NCBI GenBank assembly: GCA_038087875.1
Contig: CM075992.1
Location: 9,302,001-9,366,000 of the forward strand
From: Malacoraja senta
Lineage: Eukaryota
DNA: 64,000 bases
Reading direction: 5' to 3'
Of the stretch, positions 1,599-46,719 are shown in pieces. Under the pieces are notes generated by a model that did not search any database, had not been told where the DNA came from, and saw nothing but the letters and a program-made list of their open reading frames with translations. Numbering within the stretch: position 1 is the stretch's first letter; each line of letters opens with the position of its first letter. Both the position numbers and the translations under genes were made by a program.

Positions 1599-1650
1599 GG
1601 GGTCAAGGAAAGAGCACTCACGTCGCGGCCCTGTTTCCACCAATCTTTCT
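1599..1650 (+). ncRNA. Degenerate copy of the family A minimal HDV-like ribozyme
   Basis: Same sequence as 46555-46606 except P3 GCA/CGC mismatch, L3 CUCACGU and a terminal P2 G-U. Confidence 0.65.
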
Positions 1651-1782
1651 ACCACCACGCACAAGAAGCGACAAGACAGACACCCATTGTATGCAGATGC
1701 CGAGAAGCAAAGATATCTTTGCCGAGAAGTGTGTTCAGCTCTGGCTGAACAACGTCTGATCTTGTGTGTGGACTCGATAAGA
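1599..1782 (+). mobile_element. Ribozyme-headed short retroposon, family A (second copy, in FARSA intron 5)
   Basis: TSD AGTTGATCAGT at 1588-1598 and 1783-1793; homologous to 46555-46719 with about 20 extra internal nt. Confidence 0.85.
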
Positions 1783-1893
1783 AGTTGATCAGTAGCCAAA
1801 ATGTGGAAACAATGATTGAATGATACATTATTGCCACATGTATCTAGGAACTGTGAAATGCTTTGTTTTCCTTACAACCCGGTAAAATCGTAT

Positions 1894-6755: not shown

Positions 6756-9125
6756 CCTTCTGTTGCACCCATGCTCCAGGGTTCTCTCCCTAATGCTCTC
6801 TCGTTCAAGGTACAAACTTTTAACTCCTTGTCAGGCTTGGCATAACATTTTGTTTAACAGGGACTCGTATGAAGCAACTTCCAACATTTTTCTGATTAAG
6901 GGCACCACATAACATCAACTGCTGAGACACAAGGGACATTAACTAACTTCTCTCAGTCTGTCTGGCACTGGGCAATGGCAACCAAATACATTGCAGACGC
7001 GAGTGGATGCAAATCAACAAATTGGAAATACTGGAAATCTGAACTAAATTAAGATCAGATGCTTAAGAAGGAACTGCAGATGCTGGAAAATCGAAGGAAG
7101 AACTGCAGATGCTGGAAAATCGAATGGTAGACAAAAGTTCTGGAGAAACTCAGCGGGTGCAGCAGCATCTATGGAGCGAAGGAATTCCTTCGCTCCATAG
7201 ATGCTGCTGCACCCGCTGAGTTTCTCCAGCACTTTTGTCTACCTAAGATCAGATGCTGCTAGGTGGGCTGTGCTTTTACTACAATGTCTGCTCTATGTCA
7301 GTTGATGCGCTTATTATCAGCCAGTAGGTAAGCAGTAATGTTAGGAGGAACAGTGAAGAGGCTGAACTCTCTCAATAAATCTATGTATGAAGTTTTGAAA
7401 GTTCCTAGGCCGATTAGAAAACGTAATGATTCAGAATGTGGCTGCCTTGAGTCCATTTTGCAGTCCCTGACGTCAGTATAGTTACATATCAAATCTTCTG
7501 CAGTTTCAGTGGACTGAAACCAGGTCGCTTTTGCAGAAGAATACACAGCACAGTGTGCACATACAGTGTACTGAGTGAACAGCTTCCACCACAATAAAAC
7601 ATTCCACTCACTCAACTGCCCATTGTGTTCATGTTAAGAGATTGGTAAGAATGCGGAACTCACACTCACAGGGAGTAGTCAAGACAAGGGCGGCACAGTG
7701 GTGCAGCGGTAGAGTTGCTGCCTTACAGCGCCAGAGACCTGGGTTCAATCCTGATGACTAAGGGTGCTGTCTGTATGGAGTTTGTACGTTCTCCCGTGAC
7801 CTGTGTGGGTTTTCCCCGGGAGCTCCTGTTTCCTCCCACACTCCAAAGATGTACAGGTTTGTCGGATAATTGGCTTGGTAACTGAGTAAGTAAGGAGTAA
7901 GGGCGGCAAGATGGTGCAGCGGTAGAGCTACTGCCTTACAGTGTCAAAGATCCAGGTTCCATCCAGGTGCTGTCTGTACAGTGTTTGCACATTCTTCCTG
8001 TAACCGCGTGGGTTCTCGCCGGGTGCTCCGGTTTCTTCCCACACTCCAAAGACGTACAGATTTGTAGATTAATTGGCTTGGTTAAAATTGTAACGTTTTA
8101 GTAAGCGGGGATCGCCTTGTGGCGCGGACTAGGCGGGCCAAAGGGCCCGTTTCCGCGCAGTTTCTCTAAACTAAACTAAAAACACAGATGCATTTCAAGT
8201 AAAAGGACCATTCAGCCACCATATCCAGGCCAAACAATGGGCACCCATGCATAATAATGCCATTTCTCAGCACTTGGCCTGTAACCTTCAACTCCTTGGT
8301 GATTCAACTGCTCAGCTAGGCTCTTAATAACAGAAATGATTCTGTTTCCACCACTCTCTTTAACATTGCATTCCATGTACTCACTACCCTCTGGATGAAA
8401 ACAATCCCATTCAGACCCCTTCTAAATCTCTTACTCCTCACCATAAATCTGCACCTTCTAGCTTTATCTTCCTCTGAAATGGGGAAAAGATTCCTGCAGG
8501 TTTGCCCTATCTGTACTCATAATTTTATACACCTCATCCGTGTCCTGCTAAGCTCCTGTACTCCAGAGAGGACCGATCTAGCCTCTCCAGTAGAAACAAG
8601 GAACTGCAGAAGCTGGTTTACAAAAGACAACACAAAGTGCTGGAGTAATTCATCAGGTCAGGCTGCATCTTCGGAGAACATTTCGGGTAACGTTTTGGGT
8701 CGGAACCCTTCTTCAGATTCCACTCACAATGACGAAGGGTCCCAACCAAAAATACCATCACAATCACAATACTTTATTAGCCAAGTGTGTTTTGCAACAT
8801 ACGAGGAATTTCATTTGCCAAGTCAAATAAAAATCAACGGAACACACAAAATACATTTTAACATAAACATCCACCACTGTGACTCCTCCACATTCCTCAC
8901 TGTGATGAAAGGCGGAAAAAAATTCAAATCTCTTCCCTTCTATCGATGTTCTCCGAAGATGTTGCCTGACCCACTGAGTTATTCCAGGACTTTGCATCTT
9001 CCCTAACCTCTCCAGTCTTTCCTCATCACTTGTACTCTTATCTATTCCCCTCATGATTTGGACCCACCAAGTTCCCCCAGCGGTTTGTACTTTGCTGAAG
9101 GAGAGAAAATGTTTGGAAGACTTAC

Positions 9126-11048: not shown

Positions 11049-11364
11049 CTGCTCAAAAGAAGGAAAAAATTATCATGGAAGCAGAGCTTAACACTTTGTA
11101 AACAACCATACTGAAAATGCATTTGCTGTAGATTAGTTTACTTTAGTTTAGAGCAGGGGTCGGCAACCTTGTTCTGCATAGGGGCCAGGACCCATGTCTG
11201 TGAGCGGATGGCGGGCCACATCTATTGCCATATGTTAATAAATGTAGGTAATTATACATACTAAATTAGTAATTAATACATAATAATACATAAATTAGTA
11301 ATAATACATACTAATAATACATACTAACTAGTGATGTTTTTCGCGTGTTTTTCAATTAGTTTTC

Positions 11365-13724
11365 TGCAGTTCCCAGATCCCTCGCGTCCCTGGGACTAGG
11401 TGCAGTTCCCAGGTCTCCTGCGTGCCCCGGGACGGGCTGTAGCGTCCAGGTCGCCTGCGAACCCCGGGACTAGCTGTAGCGCCCAGGCCGCTTGCCCCGG
11501 GACTGGCTGTAGCGCCCAGTTTGCCTGCCCCGGGACTGACTGTAGCGCCCAGTTTGCCTGCCCCAGGGTACACAAAAATGCTGGAGAAACTCAGCGGGTG
11601 CAGCAGCATCTATGGAGCGAAGGAAATAGGCAACGTTTCGAGCCGAAACCCTTCTTCAGACTGATAGGGGATAGGGGGGAAGGGCGGGGAGAAGAAAGGA
11701 AAAAGGAGGAGGAGCCCGAGGGCTGAGGGAGAGATAGGGAAGGGGAGGAGACAGCAGGGGCTAACAAAATTGGGAGAATTCAATGTTCATGCCCCCAGGG
11801 ATGCAGACTCCCCAAGCGGAACATGAGGTGCTGTTCCTCCAATTTCCGGTATTGCTCGCTCTGGCCATGGAGGAGACCCAGGACAGAGAGGTCGGATACG
11901 GAATGGGAGGGGGAGTTGAAGTGCTGAGCCACCGGGAGGTCAGGTTGGTTATTGCGGACCGAGCGGAGGTGTTCGGCGAAACGATCGCCAAGCCTCCGCT
12001 TGGTCTCACCGATGTAGATCAGCTGATGCAATAGATGAGGTTGGAGGAGATGCAGGTGAACCTCTGTCGCACCTGGAACGACTGCTTGGGTCCTTGAATG
12101 GAGTCGAGGGGTGAGGTAAAGGGACAAGTGTAGCATCTCTTGCGGTTGCAAGGGAAAGTGCCCGGGGAGGGGGTGGTACGGGAGGGAAGGGAAGAATTGA
12201 CAAGGGAGTTACGGAGGGAGCAGTCTTTGCGGAAGGCAGACATGGGGGGAGACGGGATGATGTGGCGAGTGGTGGAGTCACGTTGGAGGTGGCGAAACTG
12301 ACGGAGGATAACTTATTGCATGTGACGGCTGGTGGGGTGAAAGGTGAGGACTAGGGGACTCTGCCCTTGTTGCGAGTGGGGGGATGGGGAGAGAGCAGTG
12401 TTGCGGAGTATGGCAGAGACCCTGGTGCGAGCCTCATCTATGGTGGAGGAGGGGAACCCCCGTTCCCTGAAGAATGAGGACATTTCAGATGCCCTGGTGT
12501 GGAACGCCTCATCCTGGGAGCAGATGCGGCGTAGATGGAGGAATTGGGAGTAGGGGATGGAGTCCATACAGGAAGCAGGGTGGGAAGAAGTGTAGCCCAG
12601 ATAGCCATGGGAGTCAGTAGGTTTATAGTGAATGTCGGTCAGAAGTCTATCACCTGCGATGGAGATAGTGAGGTCAAGGAATGGTAGGGAAGTGTCGAAA
12701 ATGGTCCAGGTGTATTTGAGTGCCGGATGGAAGTTGGTGGTGAAGTGGATGAAGTCAGTCAGTTGTGTGTGGGTGCAGGGTGTGGCACCAAAGCAGTCAT
12801 CGATGTAGCGGAGGTAGAGGTCGGGGGATGGGGATGGGGCCCTGGTACGTAGCGAACAAGGATTGTTCGACGTACCCGACAAAGAGGCAGGCGTAGCTGG
12901 GGCCCATGCATGTGCCCACAGCTACGCCTTGTATTTGGAGGAAATGGGAGGAGTCAAACGAGAAGTTATTGAGGGTGAGGACCAACTCCGCTAGGCGGAG
13001 GAGAGTATCAGTGGCCGGGTATAGGTTGCTTCTCTGGTCGAGGAAGAACCGGAGGGCTTTGAGACCATCCTGGTGGGGGATGGAGGTGTAGAGTGACTGG
13101 ACGTCCATGGTGAAGATGAGGGGGTGAGGGCCTAGAAGAATGGAATGCGCGGAGACGACGGAGAGTGTCTGAAGTGTCTTGAACATAGGTAGGGAGGGAT
13201 TTAACCAAGGGGGATAGGATGGAGTCAAGGTAGGTGGAAATGAGTTAGGTGGGGCACGAACAGGCAGAGACAATGGGTCTGCCGGGACAGTCAGGTTTGT
13301 GGATTTTGGGGAGAAGGTAAAATCGGGCGTGCGGGGCTGGGGAACGATGAGGTTGGAGGCTCGTTCGGGCAGGGCGTGGGAGTTGATAAATGGACTGGCT
13401 GCAGTTCCCAGGTCTCCTGCGTACCCCGGGACTAGCTGCAGTTCCCAGGTCTCCTGCGAGCCCCGGGACTAGCTGTAGTGCCCAGGTCACCTGCGTGCCC
13501 CGGGACTGGCTGCAGTTCCTAGGTCGCCTGCGAACCCCGGGACTAGCTGTAGCGCCCATGCCGCTTGCCCCGGGACTGGCTGTAGCGCCCAGGTTGCCTG
13601 CCCCGGGACTGCTGCAGTTCCCAGGTCGCCTGCGTGCCCCGGGTCTAGCTGCAGTTCCCAGGTCGCCTGCGAGCCCCAGGTCTAGCTGCTGTTTCCAGGT
13701 CGCCTGCGTGCCCCAGAAATGGCC
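11365..13724. repeat. GC-rich ~33-37 bp minisatellite (CCCCGGGACT(A/G)GCTG...), split by the PLE into 11365-11567 and 13393-13724, and running into the gap
   Basis: Direct tandem units on both sides of the PLE. Confidence 0.9.
11568..13392 (-). mobile_element. Penelope-like element (5'-truncated): RT plus GIY-YIG endonuclease, 3' UTR with hammerhead motif
   Basis: FYLLPKIHK...GRPIVS, MDVQSLYT, YLRYIDD, IYIGETKRRLGDRFAEH...VAQHFN motifs; frameshifts; CTGAAGA...GAAAC at 11630-11662 on the minus strand. Confidence 0.93.
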
Positions 13725-13924
13725 NNNNNNNNNNNNNNNNNNNNNNNNNNNNNNNNNNNNNNNNNNNNNNNNNNNNNNNNNNNNNNNNNNNNNNNNNNNN
13801 NNNNNNNNNNNNNNNNNNNNNNNNNNNNNNNNNNNNNNNNNNNNNNNNNNNNNNNNNNNNNNNNNNNNNNNNNNNNNNNNNNNNNNNNNNNNNNNNNNNN
13901 NNNNNNNNNNNNNNNNNNNNNNNN
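13725..13924. other. Assembly gap (200 N)
   Basis: Run of N. Confidence 1.
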
Positions 13925-14894
13925 GTCCCGCTGAGTTACTCCAGCCTTTTGTGTCTATCTTTGGGCAGACAGCATCTCTGGAGAAAAGGAACAGGTGATG
14001 CTTTGGGTCCAGACACAAGGTACCATCCAATCTGAGTACCCCTAACACAAACACCGCTTCAAACCCGCTAGCCCATCAACTCACACCCAAAGCCCACAAC
14101 ACACTACCTATGCCCTGCTCACCCTTTACACATTCCCCCAAACCCCACCCACCCTCCAACACACGCCAAACCACACCTCACCCAACCCCCACCACCCTCT
14201 ACACCCGTCCACTGTACATCCCCACCAAGCCCTCACCACCCTTTATTCCCCCACCACCCACAACCCCCTTTATCACCCCACACACCCCTTTACCACCCAA
14301 CACCCACGTTTAGTGGTGAATCTGTGGAATTCTCTGCCACAGAAGGTAGTTGCGGCCAGTTCATTGGCTTATATTTAAGAGGGAGTTAGATGTGGCCCTT
14401 GTCACTAAAGGGATCAGGGGGTATGGAGAGAAGGCAGGTACAGTTTACTGAGTTGGATGATCAGCCATGGTCATATTGAATGGCGGTGCAAGCTCGAAGG
14501 GCTGAATGTCCTACTCCTGCACCTATTTTCTATGTTTCTATGTTTAACCCCCACCACCCTAAGCTTTTTACCCCCTTCCACCCCAATTATCCCCCCACCA
14601 CCCTTTACTCCCAGCACCCTATGCCCCCCATACCACCCCACCCCCTTTACCTCCTCCACCACCCTATACCCCTCTTCACCCTCCCATCACTCTACACCCA
14701 AATTTACCTCCCCTCCACTCTCACCCCCCACCACCCTAAACCCCCCTATACCATCACACCCTACATCCCCCTTACCTCCTACACCCCCAATAAGCCCCCG
14801 TCCGTTACCTCCCCTCACCCCCTCCCCTTTACCTCCCTACCATCCACCACCCTTTATCCCACCACCCACTACACCCCCCTTTACCTCCCTACCA

Positions 14895-15580
14895 TCCACC
14901 ACCCTTTATTGCCCCTCCATCCACCACCACCACCACCATCACCCTTTATTGCCCCTCCATCCACCACCACCACCCTTTATTGCCCCTCCATCCACCACCA
15001 CCACCACCACCACCCTTTATTGCCCCTCCATCCACCACCACCACCACCACCCTTTATTGCCCCTCCATCCACCACCACCACCCTTTATTGCCCCTCCATC
15101 CACCACCACCACCCTTTATTGCCCCTCCATCCACCACCACCACCACCCTTTATTGCCCCTCCATCCACCACCACCACCCTTTATTGCCCCTCCATCCACC
15201 ACCACCACCCTTTATTGCCCCTCCATCCACCACCACCACCACCACCCTTTATTGCCCCTCCATCCACCACCACCACCACCACCACCCTTTATTGCCCCTC
15301 CATCCACCACCACCACCCTTTATTGCCCCTCCATCCACCACCACCACCACCACCCTTTATTGCCCCTCCATCCACCACCACCACCACCACCCTTTATTGC
15401 CCCTCCATCCACCACCACCACCACCACCACCCTTTATTGCCCCTCCATCCACCACCACCACCACCACCACCCTTTATTGCCCCTCCATCCACCACCACCA
15501 CCACCACCCTTTATTGCCCCTCCATCCACCACCACCACCACCACCACCCTTTATTGCCCCTCCATCCACCACCACCACCC
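14895..15580. repeat. Minisatellite (CCA)n-CCCTTTATTGCCCCTCCAT, 19 units, in FARSA intron 1
   Basis: Counted directly; unit length varies with the number of CCA triplets. Confidence 0.97.
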
Positions 15581-15657
15581 TCGTGGGGATGAAGACCAAC
15601 GCCTGCTGCTGCGGCGCTGACCGGCCTCTCTCCTCTCCCTCTCCCAGACCCACTCAC

Positions 15658-16185: not shown

Positions 16186-17095
16186 CAGTGAGGTACAGGT
16201 ACAAATGGGGTGGAGGTACACGTGGGGTATATTTACTGTACCTGTTCCCCACTGGTACCTTGCAAAACGTTATTCACATTATTCCCTTTATCATGTATCA
16301 GTACACTGTACAACAAGTGGGGTAGAGGTACAAGTGGGGTCCAGGTACAGGTGAAGCGCAGGTACAAGTGAAGTACAGGTACAAGTGAGGTAGAGCTACA
16401 AGTGAGATACAGGTACAAGTGAGATAGAAACATAGAAAATAGGTGCAGGAGGCCATTCGGCCCTTCAAGCCAGCACCACCATTCATTGTGATCATGGCTG
16501 ATCGTCCCCAATCAATAACCCGTGTCTGCCTTCTCCCCATATCCCTTGACTCCACTAGCCCCTAGAGCTCTATCTAACTCTCAAATCCATCCAGTGATTT
16601 GGCCTCCACTGCGCTCTGCGGCAGGGAATTCCATAAATTCACAACACTCTGGGTGAAAAAGTTTTTTCTCACCTCAGTCTTAAATGGCCTCCCCTTTATT
16701 CTAAGACTGTGGCCCCTGGTTCTGGACTCATCCCACATTGGGAACATTTTCCCTGCATCTAGCTTGTCCAGTCCTTTTATAATTTTATATGTTTCTATAA
16801 GATTCCCCCTCATCCTTCTAAACTCCAGTGAATACAAGTCGACAAGTGAATACAAGCCCTGAGATACAGGTACAAGTGAGACAGGTACAAGTGAGATACA
16901 GGTACAAGTGAGACACATGTACAAGTGGGGTTGAGCTACAAGTAGGGGTAGAGATACAAGTGGGATACAGGTACAAGAGAGGGTACAGGTTCAAGTGGGA
17001 GGGGAGGTACAATTGAAGTACAGGTACGTGGGATACAGGTACAAGAGAGGGTACAGGTACAAGTGGGATACACTCACTGTACCTGTACCCCACTT
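16186..17095. repeat. Degenerate GGTACAAGTG tandem repeat, interrupted by a CR1 fragment; resumes at 25393-25425
   Basis: Direct reading. Confidence 0.8.
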
Positions 17096-17142
17096 ACACC
17101 TGTTCCCCACTAGTACCTTGCACTAAACATTATTTGCGTTAT

Positions 17143-18232
17143 TTATGTGAGTGACATGCCAACTACCTCGTCCAGGAAGTTTGCATATACAGATGACCTT
17201 GCCCTTGCCTACCAGGGAGCTGCCCTTGAGGATATCAGCAGAGTGCTAACCCAATACTTGAAGGGGATGGAGGAGTACTTCACCTTCTGGCAACTTCGCC
17301 CTAACCCATCTAAGACAACTGTCTCTGCCTTTCACCTCGGCAATCGGCTCGCCAATGCAAAGTGCCAAGTGTCCTTTTGTGGTAAGCCGGTGAAGAATTA
17401 AGAATTCCCCAAGTACCTCGGAGTCACCCTGGATCGCACCCTCACCTATCGTGAACACCTGAAGAGGGTGGCTGATAAACTGAAAGCAAGGGTCAACATC
17501 ATCGGGAAACTTGCAGGCAACAGCTGGGGATCCAATGCACACACCCTCCGTACCGCAAGCTTAGCCCTAGTCTACTCAACAGCCGAGTTTTGCTCAACAG
17601 CTTGGGCTAATAGTTGCCACACCGAACGAGTTGACAATGCCCTTAACTCTGCAATGCGGGTCATCACAGGGACGCTTAAGTCAACACCTTTGCAGTGGCT
17701 CCCTGTCCTCTCTCATATCGCCCCTCCCAGCATACACAGATGGGAGAGGATGTTGAAAGATTTGGTGCACCATCGAGGCTAACCCTGACCTTCCCATCCA
17801 TGCTGACTTGAACAATCTGCCCAACATGTGCCTGAAGTCCCGCAAACCCTTCTGGTCTTCCGTTAAATCCCTGGAAGACTTTGACTCCAAGACTGAGTGG
17901 CGCAGAGCCTGGAAAGATGCCAACATCACAGACCCGACAGTGAAACCACCGGGTTTTGACCTCCACCACAAGCAATGGCTAACCCTGAACAGAATCCGCA
18001 CCCTCCATGCAAGACCAGCCCATCACCTGCATAAGTGGGGGAATGACAGACAGCCCTGCTTGCGACTGGGGACATCCAGACCAGACCATCCCACACATCG
18101 TGAATGGCTGCTCACTGAGGCTTCTCCCTGGGGGCATCAAAGACATCCACCCAGTAACTGATGCTGTCCTGGCCTGGATGTCTACCCTTGATCAACAACT
18201 TTAGGCTGTACACGCCATACACAAAGAAGAAG
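17143..18232 (+). mobile_element. 5'-truncated RTE-X-like non-LTR retrotransposon (RT C-terminal half, disrupted)
   Basis: FAYTDD RT motif, KYLGVTLDRTL, LALVYSTAEFC, WLPVLSHIAPP; (AAG)n tail; 11-bp TSD ATTTGCGTTAT at 17132-17142 and 18233-18243. Confidence 0.85.
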
Positions 18233-18669
18233 ATTTGCGTTATCCCCTTATCATGTATCTGTACACTGTGGATGACTCGATTGTAACCATATGTTGTCTT
18301 TCCGCTGACTGGTTAGCACGCAACAAAAGCTTTTCACTATACCTCGGTACACGTGGCAATAAACTAAACTTTTTCTCACAGAGAGTGCTGAGTCTGTGGA
18401 ATTCTCTGCCTCAGAGGGTGGTGGAGGCTTTCCTCCACCAGAGGGTGGTGGAGGCATCCCTGGATGCTTTCAAGAGAGAGCTAGATAGGGCTCTTAAAAA
18501 TAGCGGAGTCAGGGGATATGGGGAGAAGGCAGGAACGGGGTACTGATTGGGGATGATCAGCCATAATCACATTGAATGGCGGTGCTGGCTCGAAGGGCCA
18601 AATGGCCTACTCCTGCACCTATTGTCTATTGTCTATTGTCTAAACTAACGTCAAAAGGTTTAGACAATA

Positions 18670-25392: not shown

Positions 25393-28300
25393 AGGTACAA
25401 GTGGGGTGCAGGCACATGTGTGGGGTAGAATCGCAAGTTTGGGGCATCCCAAAGTGCTCATCTCGTCTTCAATACTCTCCGAGTGAAAATGAGCAATGCA
25501 CTGAAGAATTGTCCCTTTAATAACACACACATCCTTCTTGAAAGAAACATAGAATAAAATAAACATAATTGGCATTTTCTCCCTCAATATCCAACTAAAT
25601 TATCTGCAAATTGTAACCAGAATAATGACAAGACCATAATTGTTATGACACAATAAAAATTCTGGAAATAGTTTGCAACGAGTTAGACAGGATCTCTGGA
25701 ATGAAAAAGGGAATTAACATTTCAGGTCGATCAAGTTTCATCCGAATTTTGAATATCCAGCAACCACAGTATTTTGCTTTTGGAATAGTTTTACATAGAA
25801 AAAACAAACTGAGCCAAATGTGTTGTAGAGCCACAGGATTACACAGCACGGAAACAGCCCCTTCCAACTCATCCATGACGACTAAAATGCCCCATCAAAG
25901 CTAGCTCTAGTTTCAAATGTTTGGCCCATATCCCTCTAAACTATTCCTATCCACGGACCTGTCCAAATGTCTTTTATAGTACCTGCCTCACCCACTTCCA
26001 TTGGCAACTCATTCCTCGTATCCACTTCCCTACGTGTGAAGTTAGACAATAGACAAAAGGTGCAGGAGCAGGCCATTTGGCCCTTCGAGCCAGCACCGCC
26101 ATTCAATGTGATCATGGCTGATCATCCCCAATCAGTACCCCGTTCCTGCCTTCTCCCCATATCCCCTGACTCCGCTATTTTTAAGAGCCCTATCTAGCTC
26201 TCTCTTGAAAGCATCCAGAGAACCTGACTCCACCGCCCTCTGAGGCAGAGAATTCCACAGACTCACCACTCTCTGTGAGAAAAAGTTGCCCCTCAGATTC
26301 CTATTTAATCTCTCCCCACTCTGGAATTCTCTGCCTCAGAAGGCAGTGAAGGCCGGTTCTCTGGATGGTTTCAAGAGAAGGTTAGATAGAGCTCTTAAAG
26401 ATAGCGGAGTCAAGGGTTATGGAGAGAAGGCAGGAACGGGGTACTGATTGTGGATGATCAGCCATGATCACATTGAATGGCGGTTCTGGGTCGAAGGGCC
26501 GAATGGTCTCCTCCTGCACCTATTGTCTATGTATGTATCACTCACTTCTACCGATGCCCTCTAGTTCTCGATCTCCCCCCGACCCTGGAACAAAGACTCC
26601 ATTCACCCTTTCTGTTCACCTCGTAATTTTATATGCCTTTATAAGATCATCCCTCCGCCTCCAGCGCTCCAAGGAATAAAGTCCTAGCTTGCCCAACCTA
26701 TTCCTGTAGCTCAGGCTCTCAGGCCTTGGCAAGATCTTCATAAATTTTCTCTGCATCCTTTCCAGCTTAAGGGCGTTTTTCTTATAGCAGGGTGACCAAA
26801 ACTGAACACAGTACTCTATAAGTACGGCTAAGAGTAACGCAAGGATGGAGGATGGGAAATAATGAGACCATTTTAAATTCATATTGTCTCCTGTCACGTT
26901 TATATTACTGTACCCACTGGCTGGAGGCTGTATTAAGGAGTTGGAGGAATTTTTTCGATTAGTTCACATCTTGTGTCTACATCTACAGGCAGGGAACTGC
27001 ATATTTCCTCCGGAAACAAGTAATAGTTGTATCAACATTTGGTTATTTTACTTTAGACTTTAGAGATACAGCGTAGAAACAGGCCCTTCGGCCCACCCAG
27101 TCCCTGCCAACCAACGATTGGCACCATCCTATACACTTGTGACAATTCACAATTTTACAGAAGCCAATTAACCTACAATCCTCTAGGCCTTTGGAGAGTG
27201 GGAGGAAACCGGAGCACCTGGAGAAACTCCATGGGTCACAGGGAGAACGTACTGTCCAAACTCTGTACAGACTGCAGCCGTAGTCGGATTCGAACTCTGC
27301 CTCTGTAAGGGAGCAACTCTACCGCTGGTGCCACTGTGCCGCCCAATTTGTGGACACCATTGCTGATTCAAAACTTTTATGGAATTCTTAATCTATTTAG
27401 TTAGTTGAGTTTCAGTACCCTAGCTGCCATAATAAGATTGGAACCCCCAAGGTTTCTTAATCATTAGCTCTGGCCTTTGGAATATTCATTGAATAAAACA
27501 TGCTATCAGACCTGGTAGCATACATTACAAACCCAGTGCTATTCAGGATATGCTCATTGAAATAAAGTTTTTCATCTGTGAATTCTGTTACTTTGTTTTT
27601 TAGTTTATTAGTTTAGAGAAACAGCGCGGAAACCGGCCCTTCTGCCCACCGAGTCCGCAGCAACCAGCGATCCCCGCACATTAACACTACCCTACAAACA
27701 CTAGGAACAATTTTTTACACATACACCAAGCCAATTAACCTACATACCTGTACATCTTTGGAGTGTGGGAGGAAACCGAAGATCTCAGTTAATAGAAAAT
27801 AATTGGATCCCATAAATTATCGGTGGTATTGTTGGTATATCCTTTTCAGGTTTCTGCACCTTCAAATCTTAATCTATATCATGGAATATTTTCCTCATAG
27901 CGCCAGAGAGCTGGATTAAATCCTGACCTCGGCTGCTGTCCATATGGGGTTTGTATGTTCTCCCTGTGAACGTGTGGGTTTCCTCCGAGTGCTCCAATTT
28001 CCTCCCACATCTCAAAGACACGCAGTTTGTAGGTCAAAGATAGACACAAATTGCTGGTGTAACTCAGCAGGACAGGCAGCATCTTTGGAGAGAAGGAATG
28101 GGTGAGGTTTCGGGAAGGGTCTCGACTCTTCGGTTTAAACCAGCGTCTACACAGTTTGTAGGTCAATTGGCCTCTGTAAATTTCCCCGAATGTGTAGTAA
28201 GAAGCGAAAATGGGGGTAACTAACATGGAACTTGTGTGAACAGGTGATTGATGGTCAGCATGGACTCAATGGGCCAAAGGGCCTGTTTCCATGCTGTATC

Positions 28301-29212
28301 ATTTCAATTCAATTCAAAACATATGACAGAGAATGAGGCCATTCAGTCTGTCATGCTCATGCCCATTAAAAAATAAGTGCTAATGCTAACTTCCAGAATA
28401 AGATTTATATCTCGGGAGGTCAGAAAACTCTTCAAGTACACATACATTTACTATTGAATGTGATGAGGGTTTCTGCATCACACCTTCTCACCCCACACTG
28501 CCTGACCACTGGTTGAAAACCTTTCTCCTTAATTCTCCATTACCAATGACATTAAACCATGGCCTCTCTGTCTTGTAACACCCCTGCTGATCAAAATAGA
28601 TCTTTCTTATTTATTTTTATCTAGGCTCCTCATTACTTTATGCATCACAATTAAGCTTCAGCTCAGCTTCTTCCAAAGAAAACAATCCTTCCTTATCTAG
28701 AATCCTGGACCTGAAGCACTGTTCCTCCATTCCGACACCGGAGTTCCGATCATCCCGGCGAGAGGGCCTGTACATCGGGCCGTCCGTAGAGGCGACTGCA
28801 GAGGGTTCTCTGCCCCGACCACGGGTGGACACAGAGGAAGATGACTGAACTTTATTGCCTTCCATCCCAATGGGAAACGTTGAATCCGCTGTGGTGGATG
28901 TTTATGTTAAACTCTATCGTGTATTGTGTTTTTATTTTTAACTCAAATTTCACTGTACCAATTGGTACATGTGACAATAAATGTGACCTTGAACTAATCC
29001 TTGTTTTCTCTCTCCACGGGTGCTGCCTGAGTTTTTCTCGCATTTTCTGTTTTATCTGTAGCTGTTTTGTTTCAGTGTACTATTTCATCCAATGCACTCC
29101 TTCATTTGGTATTGGTGTTGGTTTTATTATTATCACATGTATTGAGAAACGGTGAAAAGCTTTATTTTTGTTTACTAGCCAGGCAAATCATGCCATATAT
29201 CAGCTTGCGCAA

Positions 29213-29266
29213 GGGGTGGGAGATTGCAACCTTCACGTGGTCCGCCCTGTTTCGACAAATGCAATC
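29213..29266 (+). ncRNA. Minimal HDV-like ribozyme at the 5' end of a short retroposon (family B)
   Basis: P1 GGGGUGG/CCGCCCU; P2 GAUUGCA/UGCAAUC; P3 ACC/GGU; L3 UUCACGU; GU-UUCGA linker; J4/2 CAAA with C at 29256; stems covary with the family A copy. Confidence 0.85.
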
Positions 29267-29351
29267 AACCCGGCGTGCACAATCAAATAAGATCAAATAG
29301 AACAAGTTGTCCGACAACTTTAGGTTGTGCAGGCCATACGCAAGAAGAAGA
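29213..29351 (+). mobile_element. Ribozyme-headed short retroposon, family B, with RTE-X-like tail
   Basis: TSD AGCTTGCGCAA at 29202-29212 and 29352-29362; (AAG)n tail; last ~37 nt match the LINE end at 18195-18232. Confidence 0.87.
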
Positions 29352-30508
29352 AGCTTGCGCAAAAGAGAAAATAAACAGACTGCAGAATTTAGTGTTACAG
29401 CGATCCCCGCACATTAACACTATCTACTCACACTAGAGATAATTTAGAATTATACCAAGCCAATTAACCCACAAACCTGTATGTCTTTGGAATATGGGAG
29501 GAAACCGGAGAAAACCCATGCAGGTCACAGGGAGAACGTATACAAACTCCGTCTATACCAGTATCGAACCCAGGTCTCTGGCGCTGTGAAGCAGCAACTC
29601 TACACTGTGCCCCGTCATTATGAACATGTTGAACCTCCGTAGCCTTAGAGTAGAGATGTTAGTGTGTCTCTCCAGTGATACAGAAGCAGGCCGTTCCATA
29701 AACTGCCACCGAGAGAGCAAACTAATTACTCCCATTCCCTGATCTCTTATCACAGCCGGCAACTTGTCATTTCCAAATCTTCACCTAATTCCCCTATTGA
29801 ATGTGATTATGCACATCAGCGGTGATATTATTTACTGCAGAGCATGCCTGCGGAGCCTAACGGCTTATTGCTACTTCTTTCAATGTATCCACTCTGTTTC
29901 CATCATTCTTCCAGTCAGAAAATTTCATAAAGAACACGTGCAAAAATTGTATCTATTTTTCATACCATCTCCGGTTCATTTGCCAATGCCATAAATCAAC
30001 CCTGTTATCACCAGAAATCATTTCTCCTTATCTACTTGACAAGAAGTACATACATCGTGGCTCAAAGGACAGCTTTTCATGTTTATACATAGCCAGAGAC
30101 CAACCCCCGCTTCCCTCTGGAGCCTAATTACAGCATCCTTGACTGTCGTAAGCTTTGCCTGACCGCACAGGTTTAACAACATTCCCTTGCCTGGTGAATT
30201 GTGCAATTATTTCTGTTTCCTCAATTATTCCCTTCTTGTTCCACGGCGCACATTTCTAAGCATATCTCTGTTGACGAACAAACATCAGCACCTTTTAATC
30301 CTGAATTTCAAGTTATGTTCATAGCAATCCAATACATCACCCAAGATAGACCCAAAAAGATGGAGTAACTCAGCGGGTCAGACAGCATCTCTGGAGAAAA
30401 GGAATAGGTAACTTTTCGGGTTGAGACCCTTCTTCAGACTGGGTCTTGACCCGAAACATCCATCACCCATTCCTTCTCTACAGAGATGCTGTCTGATCCG
30501 CTGAGTTA

Positions 30509-46554: not shown

Positions 46555-46606
46555 GGGGTCAAGGAAAGAGCGTTCACGTCGCGGCCCTGTTTCCACCAAT
46601 CTTTCC
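46555..46606 (+). ncRNA. Minimal HDV-like (CPEB3-type) self-cleaving ribozyme at the 5' end of a short retroposon (family A)
   Basis: P1 GGGGUC/GGCCCU with G1-U wobble; P2 GGAAAGA/UCUUUCC; P3 GCG/CGC; L3 UUCACGU; J4/2 CCAA with C75-equivalent at 46596; P4 replaced by a short linker. Confidence 0.85.
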
Positions 46607-46719
46607 ACCACCATGCAAAAGAAGCACAAGACAGACGCCATTGTATGCAGATGCAGAGAAGTGTGTTCAGCTCTGGCTGAACAACTTCTAATGTTGTATG
46701 TGGACTCGACAAGAAAAAG
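46555..46719 (+). mobile_element. Ribozyme-headed short retroposon, family A
   Basis: TSD GCCTGGAAAC at 46545-46554 and 46720-46729; AAG-type tail; inserted in a CR1 tail. Confidence 0.85.

What the first reader, a model, noticed from the sequence alone, without database searches (positions are those of the whole stretch)
29213..29351. Second ribozyme-SINE family with covarying stems
This 139-bp element (11-bp TSD) has different stem sequences but the same fold: P1 GGGGUGG/CCGCCCU, P2 GAUUGCA/UGCAAUC and P3 ACC/GGU. The single-stranded parts are kept: L3 UUCACGU, GUUUC.A linker and C-N-A-A. P2 and P3 differ from family A at several positions yet all pairs are kept, and the element again starts at G1 next to the TSD. 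This covariation inside one window is strong evidence that the structure is selected and that at least two ribozyme-SINE lineages exist.
Basis: partly seen in the sequence, partly recalled or inferred. Interest (0 to 1): 0.9.

Follow-up and report, generated by a model that had tools for sequence, protein, structure and literature searches.

The report
Ribozyme-headed miniature of a LINE
A 139-base jumping element, present in thousands of copies, is just the two ends of a larger retrotransposon. It starts with a tiny predicted self-cutting RNA, and a sister retrotransposon's self-cutting RNA closely resembles the mammalian CPEB3 ribozyme, hinting at where that ribozyme came from.

Summary
29213-29351 has an 11-bp TSD and a complete P4-less HDV-like fold. 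The genome holds 2,328 exact core matches, and 34 of 46 insertion sites are compatible with a start at G1.

It is not a SINE with an independent head. It is a bipartite internal-deletion derivative of a ~3.05-kb Vingi-like LINE (endonuclease + RT, no RNase H): nt 1-76 match the LINE's own ribozyme-bearing 5' end (71/76), and nt 95-139 match its stop codon, 3' UTR and tail. This is the NARTc/RIME/R2-SIDE design.

Against family A, 8 of 16 pairs differ, all on both sides and still paired. Across six lineages 94 of 96 cells pair, though three lineages were picked by a pairing scan. Consensus J4/2 is CGAA; this copy's CAAA is partly a sublineage marker.

Apparently new: a vertebrate-like host, a Vingi-like partner, a P4-less ribozyme in a eukaryote, and a 5'-3' closing stem. 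A sister LINE in this genome and a metagenomic relative carry 5' ribozymes scoring 56-64 bits against Rfam's mammalian CPEB3 model (cutoff 35), suggesting CPEB3's ribozyme is an exapted LINE head. Cleavage is untested.

The parts
29202..29212 (+). 5' target-site duplication (11 bp)
   Evidence: identical to 29352-29362
29213..29266 (+). Predicted P4-less HDV-like ribozyme, 54 nt: G1=29213, 7-bp P1, 2-nt J1/2, 7-bp P2, 3-bp P3, CPEB3-type L3, P1.1 candidate C29234-G29249, candidate catalytic C29256
   Evidence: L3 and J4/2 match the Rfam CPEB3 consensus shown
29213..29288 (+). Segment derived from the extreme 5' end of the partner LINE (71 of 76 bases identical to L090 and to L091)
29272..29281 (+). 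5' arm of a closing stem that pairs with the 3' UTR
29282..29306 (+). Junction zone: a duplicated 9-10-nt unit (one unit missing in L066 and L082) plus about 6 nt of unclear origin
   Evidence: alignment
29304..29320 (+). 7-bp inner hairpin across the deletion junction
29307..29351 (+). Segment derived from the LINE 3' end: last codons, stop codon at 29321-29323, 3' UTR and (GAA)n tail
   Evidence: matches the 3' end of 28 of 30 LINE loci
29326..29335 (+). 3' arm of the closing stem (10 of 10 pairs in a near-consensus copy, 9 in this copy)
29352..29362 (+). 3' target-site duplication
17141..18233 (+). 5'-truncated, broken copy of the partner LINE family (RT C-terminal half, CCHC knuckle, same 3' UTR and tail)
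46555..46716 (+). Family A element, comparison lineage: 6-bp P1, J4/2 CCAA, its own LINE-like 3' end
1599..1783 (+). Second, more diverged family A copy

Best explanation
The element is a bipartite non-autonomous retrotransposon (a SIDE/NARTc-type miniature) made by internal deletion of a ~3.05-kb Vingi-like APE LINE. Shown: it keeps the LINE's first ~76 nt, which form a minimal HDV-like ribozyme, and its last ~45 nt, and copies are full-length retroinsertions with ~8-16-bp TSDs that start at or next to G1. Inferred: a copy is transcribed by read-through from upstream or from an internal Pol II promoter; the ribozyme cuts 5' of G1 using C29256 and frees a unit-length RNA; the LINE protein binds the 3' UTR/(GAA)n end, helped by a stem pairing nt 60-69 with nt 114-123, and inserts it by target-primed reverse transcription through to G1. 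Selection acts on the source elements only; most genomic copies simply decay.
For: LINE L062:2383-5418 begins with element nt 9-77 (93%) and encodes EN + RT. All 10 LINE 5' ends fetched carry part of the ribozyme and 2 of 10 carry it whole from G1, with P1 U-A where the short element has U.G. The tail is shared with 28 of 30 LINE loci. 20 of 20 position-ordered core matches are the short element. At 46 distinct sites the TSD ends exactly before G1 in 20, overlaps only G bases of the head in 14 more, lies within 2 nt in 44, and is absent in 1. In contigs of 4 public runs from 4 coded organisms, unrelated flanks join at 29213 (42, 11, 37, 42 contigs); within the ribozyme only 29244 (pair-compatible G>A), 29254 and 29257 vary at 5% or more in several runs. 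Six lineages give 94 of 96 cells paired and 13 of 16 pairs with two-sided changes; 0 of 100,000 shuffles reached that. Ribozyme-headed NARTc and SIDEs are active in vitro (PMC3185411, PMC4035085, passages).
Against: No cleavage data. Rfam does not call family B. Three of the six lineages were found by a scan that demands pairing, so the shuffle test is partly circular. The 2-nt J1/2 is short: in another ribozyme a 1-nt linker gave little activity and 3-7 nt only several cuts per hour (PMC4908430, passages). The MFE fold pairs the 5' G-run with nt ~56-59 instead of P1 (pseudoknots are not modelled), a possible attenuator. An internal promoter would also give a fixed +1. 9 of 18 distant LINE relatives with an EN start showed no ribozyme by descriptor or blast. 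No partner LINE was found for family A (0 of 15 tails). The closing stem is clear only in B, A and L141, weak in C and L140 and lost in one of six B copies folded.
Confidence: 0.77

Rival explanations
1. Same ancestry, but the precise 5' end is set by an internal Pol II promoter in the first ~77 nt (as Pr77 does in L1Tc). The ribozyme is slow or secondary.
For: Pr77 is both promoter and ribozyme and starts at +1 (PMC3185411, passages). Some family A copies and L140 have an extra 5' G, as cap copying would give. J1/2 is only 2 nt.
Against: A promoter does not explain compensatory pairing at 13 of 16 positions or the kept catalytic C. The base before G1 is T in 27 of 46 sites (background 31%, p 7e-5), not G.
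Confidence: 0.14
2. The fold is kept as a protein-binding or nuclease-protecting 5' module and is not catalytically active in this family.
For: Inverted 55-105-nt heads cap 4 of 29 truncated LINE copies, so the head lies near the insertion site during integration. A review describes cap-like protection by an R2 ribozyme fold (PMC13708176, passage).
Against: The C, the G1 wobble, the L3 bases and the A-A of J4/2 are kept nearly throughout the lineages, while the J4/2 base that is flipped out in HDV varies freely (G/U/A/C; PMC6326823). That is the pattern of catalytic constraint.
Confidence: 0.07
3. A classical Pol III SINE whose independent small-RNA head happens to fold like a ribozyme.
For: Short, non-coding, high-copy, with TSD and simple-repeat tail.
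Against: No tRNA, no box A and no box B beyond one loose 6-mer, and the head is the LINE's own 5' end.
Confidence: 0.02

Closest known systems
NARTc/L1Tc, RIME/ingi, NARTco and SIDERs of trypanosomatids (PMC3185411, PMC4035085; passages read)
   Same: Non-autonomous element sharing its first ~77 nt with an Ingi-type APE LINE, with an HDV-like ribozyme positioned to cut at +1 and dispersed insertion with TSDs.
   Different: Animal host, partner without RNase H, ribozyme of 54 nt without P4, (GAA)n tail instead of poly(A), thousands of copies.
R2 SIDEs of Drosophila (PMC3414825, abstract in listing; PMC6765202, passage)
   Same: Short internally deleted element that keeps the 5' HDV-like ribozyme and the 3' recognition end.
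   Different: R2 is rDNA-specific with an RLE endonuclease and a much larger ribozyme; this element inserts at dispersed sites.
Vingi non-autonomous derivatives, e.g. of Vingi-1_EE (PMC5786205, introduction and passages read)
   Same: Bipartite internal-deletion elements from a compact single-ORF LINE of about 3.1 kb lacking RNase H.
   Different: [quoted passage not shown] Kojima 2011 and Ruminski 2011 were not held, so an earlier mention cannot be excluded.
Minimal P4-less HDV-like ribozymes: drz-Mtgn-1, theta ribozymes (PMC10879173, passages)
   Same: No P4, short linker to the catalytic C.
   Different: Those are phage or metagenomic; that study's refined motif gave no eukaryotic hits in human, mouse and protists. 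Here the ribozyme heads a retroelement and has a CPEB3-type L3.
Mammalian CPEB3 ribozyme (Rfam RF00622)
   Same: Same L3, same G-U after P1 and, in the family consensus, same CGAA. Family A scores 31.5 bits; the sister LINE C head 56.7-63.8 and L140 55.6.
   Different: Family B has different stems, no P4 and no hit to RF00622. CPEB3 is a single intronic copy in mammals.

Membership tests
HDV-like ribozyme | 6-7-bp P1 opening with a G1 wobble | tested here: met
   7 bp with G1.U; LINE has U-A at pair 5
HDV-like ribozyme | ~7-bp P2 pseudoknot and 3-bp P3 closing a 7-nt L3 with U..CG | tested here: met
   descriptor features from PMC6326823 and PMC4908430 passages
HDV-like ribozyme | P1.1 of 1-2 pairs between L3 and J1/4 | tested here: inconclusive
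   one C-G pair possible, as in the CPEB3 model; UCC goes with GG (2 lineages) and UUC with GU (4 lineages)
HDV-like ribozyme | Catalytic C in J4/2 (C-R-R-A descriptor) | tested here: met
   C29256, CAAA here and CGAA in consensus; CUAA and CCAA variants differ at the flipped-out second base
HDV-like ribozyme | P4 helix (absent in the minimal subclass) | tested here: not met
   only 5 nt between GU and the C; fits the minimal subclass
HDV-like ribozyme | Score above the gathering cutoff of an Rfam HDV-type family | tested here: not met
   14.4 and 17.5 bits vs cutoff 44 for RF02682
HDV-like ribozyme | Mg2+-dependent self-cleavage 5' of G1, lost in C-to-U | not testable with these tools
   needs an in vitro assay
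Bipartite non-autonomous LINE (SIDE/NARTc type) | 5' part is the extreme 5' end of an autonomous LINE | tested here: met
   71 of 76 identical to L090 and L091
Bipartite non-autonomous LINE (SIDE/NARTc type) | 3' part is the same LINE's 3' end; no ORF; TSDs | tested here: met
Bipartite non-autonomous LINE (SIDE/NARTc type) | Mobilised in trans by the LINE protein | not testable with these tools
   inferred from shared ends
Pol III SINE (tRNA/5S/7SL head) | Small-RNA-derived head with box A and box B | tested here: not met
Vingi clade (partner LINE) | Compact single ORF, APE + RT, no RNase H | tested here: met
   Pfam EN and RT only; most of the best 120 homologues are 900-1,100 aa with no RNase H family listed; definition from PMC13708176
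Vingi clade (partner LINE) | RT phylogeny groups it with named Vingi elements | not testable with these tools
   tree has no named Vingi or Ingi reference; the CCHC-knuckle argument against RTE is recalled
CPEB3 ribozyme RF00622 | Score of 35 bits or more | tested here: not met
   family B has no hit and family A 31.5; met only by sister lineage C and L140

The most novel reading that the evidence does not exclude
CPEB3-type HDV-like ribozymes are the standard 5' module of Vingi-like LINEs in animals. This element shows the module shrunk to a P4-less 54-mer and spread as a parasite. The single mammalian CPEB3 intronic ribozyme is an exapted 5' head of one subclade (LINE C / L140), whose heads match it even in stems that vary freely between lineages.
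Probability: 0.5. Interest if true: 0.82.

Novelty: new variant of a known kind. Interest (0 to 1): 0.63.

Why it matters
It extends the ribozyme-headed SIDE/NARTc strategy to a vertebrate-like genome and to Vingi-like LINEs, a clade now used for RNA-based gene writing (PMC13708176), where 5'-end processing matters. It offers one of the smallest predicted HDV-like ribozymes in a eukaryote, with thousands of natural variants. If the CPEB3 link holds, the origin of the best-studied mammalian ribozyme becomes a directly testable retrotransposon-exaptation question.

Tried and rejected
Whole-window Rfam scan: no call on this element.

MFE folding cannot show the pseudoknot.

The first 30 loci were picked by similarity to this copy and overstate CAAA (27 of 30), so I used position-ordered matches instead. 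Four duplicated-flank loci were dropped before the TSD count, leaving 46 of 50.

A pattern for a third lineage with a different central P3 pair found only mutated A/B copies and chance hits in the 100 of 122 matches listed, against a control of 83.

Family A's partner LINE was not found (15 of 701 tail matches fetched).

No RNA holder listed as such; the runs guessed to be RNA are contigs and cannot show expression or ends.

The bacterial promoter scan is irrelevant here. The fifth row of the alignment was on the wrong strand and is ignored. mis-sliced lineage C by one base; one search is the corrected count. A homologue search with LINE C gave no named vertebrate protein in the best 120.

Literature: ten searches listed no paper on a Vingi ribozyme, on this family, or on a retrotransposon origin of the CPEB3 ribozyme. 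PMC8233481 has no occurrence of 'origin', 'transpos' or 'retro'. Ruminski 2011, Kojima 2011, Webb 2009 and Jimenez 2015 were not held, Repbase was not available and no supplements were read; any of these may already hold part of this.

Full report
OBSERVATION. Slicing gives a 7-bp P1 with G1.U, a 2-nt J1/2, a 7-bp P2, a 3-bp P3, a 7-nt L3, GU, five more bases, C29256 and then P2'. There is no P4. A structural descriptor finds only this site and family A (46555) in the window, and nothing in 3,776 simulated windows. Rfam does not call it (14.4 bits, E 1.7). The host genome G000 is 1.94 Gb. Its repeats look like those of cartilaginous fishes, but that is recalled and was not tested.

FAMILY. The DNA search gave 1,277 candidates, and the 40 scored were 97-100% identical. 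A 28-mer across P3'-P2' has 2,328 exact matches and 0 for the reversed control. In the first 100 listed, the second J4/2 base is G 62, U 27, A 9, C 2 (hand count); the CUAA form has 670 matches. A relaxed core covering A and B has 3,208 matches on one strand alone. All 20 position-ordered matches fetched are the short element with its tail. At 46 distinct insertion sites (4 duplicated-flank loci of 50 dropped), the TSD ends just before G1 in 20, overlaps only G bases of the head in 14, lies within 2 nt in 44, is weak in 1 and absent in 1. The family is held by runs of at least 8 coded organisms in 11 studies, and in the 4 runs laid, unrelated flanks join at 29213. CAAA is partly a sublineage marker: it is linked to G at nt 101 (29 of the first 100 of 286 copies; 61 CGAA copies genome-wide; p 2e-4). 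The other CAAA copies listed sit on the CGAA background and fit CpG decay.

WHAT IT IS. The last 39 nt match the end of a broken LINE in the window (17141-18233). That LINE has 1,037 candidates, and the tail matches 28 of 30 loci. A near-full copy, L062:2383-5418, begins with element nt 9-77 and encodes an APE endonuclease and RT with a C-terminal CCHC motif and no RNase H. Homologues are mostly ~1,000-aa single ORFs on 3.1-3.5-kb contigs. That fits the description of Vingi as a compact single-ORF sister of Ingi without RNase H (PMC13708176, passages), but no named reference was available for the tree. All 10 LINE 5' ends fetched carry ribozyme sequence, and two are complete from G1, matching the element at 71 of its first 76 bases. 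The element is therefore LINE 5' end + short junction + LINE 3' end, the bipartite class described for RTE, Ingi, Vingi and R2 (PMC5786205, introduction and passages). It has no tRNA-like head.

COVARIATION. B versus A: 8 of 16 pairs changed, all on both sides and all still paired, while 16 of 18 loop bases are identical. To go beyond two sequences I fetched 80 metagenome loci of related LINEs. Of 18 with an EN start, 2 gave a descriptor hit about 200 nt upstream (L140, L141; both full-length with TSDs beside the ribozyme). Six carry a further head type (L142 family) found by blast, 1 carries a partial L140 head, and 9 showed none. A second, younger LINE of G000 (lineage C, 464 candidates, ~98% identical copies) was followed upstream without any pairing criterion. 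4 of 14 copies reach the 5' end and all 4 carry a ribozyme with P4; L214 is full-length with an 11-bp TSD right before G1. Across six lineages 94 of 96 cells pair and 13 of 16 pairs show two-sided changes; the shuffle mean is 66.5 and the maximum 82. Three lineages were chosen by a pairing scan, so this test is partly circular. Their position at LINE starts is independent evidence. The four ribozyme-bearing LINE lineages in the tree (B, C, L140/L141 and the L142 family) fall in one 31-row clade (99/99), which also holds rows where no ribozyme was found; family A has no protein and is not in the tree.

MECHANISM. Shown: shared ends, precise starts, conserved fold and catalytic C. Inferred from the L1Tc/NARTc and R2 systems (PMC3185411, PMC4035085, PMC6765202; passages): self-cleavage before G1 frees a unit RNA from read-through transcripts, and the LINE protein copies it by TPRT. 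Two further features bear on this. First, nt 60-69 pair with nt 114-123 of the 3' UTR (z -3.5 for this copy; -3.2 to +0.2 in six others). Family A has a different 12-bp stem in the same place (z -1.7 to -4.5), and the LINE's two ends form the duplex too (-20 kcal/mol against a best of -17.5 in 140 body windows). In other lineages it is clear for L141 and weak for C and L140. Second, 4 of 29 truncated LINE copies are capped by an inverted 55-105-nt head. In L046 the head carries LINE-specific sequence inside a 13-bp TSD, two others have near-perfect TSDs and one has none. This suggests twin priming on a 5' end held close to the target. T precedes G1 at 27 of 46 sites (p 7e-5), which would fit a non-templated A on a finished cDNA, or a nicking preference. 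Against the reading: no assay, a short J1/2 (PMC4908430), a competing helix in the MFE, and the promoter alternative.

CPEB3 LINK (beyond the finding). Lineage C heads score 63.8, 59.7 and 56.7 bits and L140 55.6 bits against RF00622 (cutoff 35). Family A scores 31.5, and B, L141 and L145 give no hit. L140 matches the model consensus in P1, P2 and P3, although these stems vary freely between lineages, and C and L140 are sister LINEs in the tree (100/99). Shared ancestry is more economical than convergence, but no mammalian flank was examined, so it remains a hypothesis. Ten literature searches listed no such claim. PMC8233481 has no mention of origin or transposons (term search) and the PMC10919898 passages give none. 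Four key papers were not held and no supplements were read.

VERDICT. Real, and well supported as a ribozyme-headed short internally deleted LINE. The kind is known. The host group, the Vingi-like partner, the P4-less size and the closing stem appear new within what I could search. The CPEB3 connection is the most valuable lead.

Noticed in passing
L214:103-170; L201, L202, L210 (G000 lineage C LINE 5' end): A second, younger Vingi-like LINE of this genome starts with an HDV-like ribozyme with P4 that scores 57-64 bits against the mammalian CPEB3 model.
   Followed up: partly
L140:3251-3323: Full-length LINE in a metagenome record whose 5' ribozyme matches the CPEB3 consensus in P1, P2 and P3 (55.6 bits); sister to lineage C in the RT tree.
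   Followed up: partly
L034, L040, L046, L047, L061; probably also L142 and L150: 5'-truncated LINE copies capped by an inverted piece of their own 5' head, often with a multi-kb deletion; looks like twin priming just downstream of the ribozyme.
   Followed up: partly
L203:371-530: A lineage C copy whose 5' end holds about six tandem repeats of a ~26-nt piece of the ribozyme, suggesting repeated template jumping at the 5' end.
   Followed up: no
window 46555-46716 and 1599-1783: Family A ends in codons resembling a LINE C-terminus of the C/L140 type plus a 3' UTR, but no autonomous partner was found in 15 tails.
   Followed up: partly
46 family B insertion sites (L001-L030, L065-L084): The base just before G1 is T in 27 of 46 sites (background 31%), mostly as the last base of the TSD.
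   Followed up: partly
window 7140-7229 and 26049-26530: Perfect or near-perfect palindromes made of two head-to-head pieces of common interspersed repeats; they give spurious miRNA hits in Rfam.
   Followed up: no
window 11362-11538, 13361-13723, 14813-15618, 16308-17120: Minisatellite arrays (37-, 31/40- and 17-bp units) with strong GC skew, and a 200-base gap at 13725-13924.
   Followed up: no
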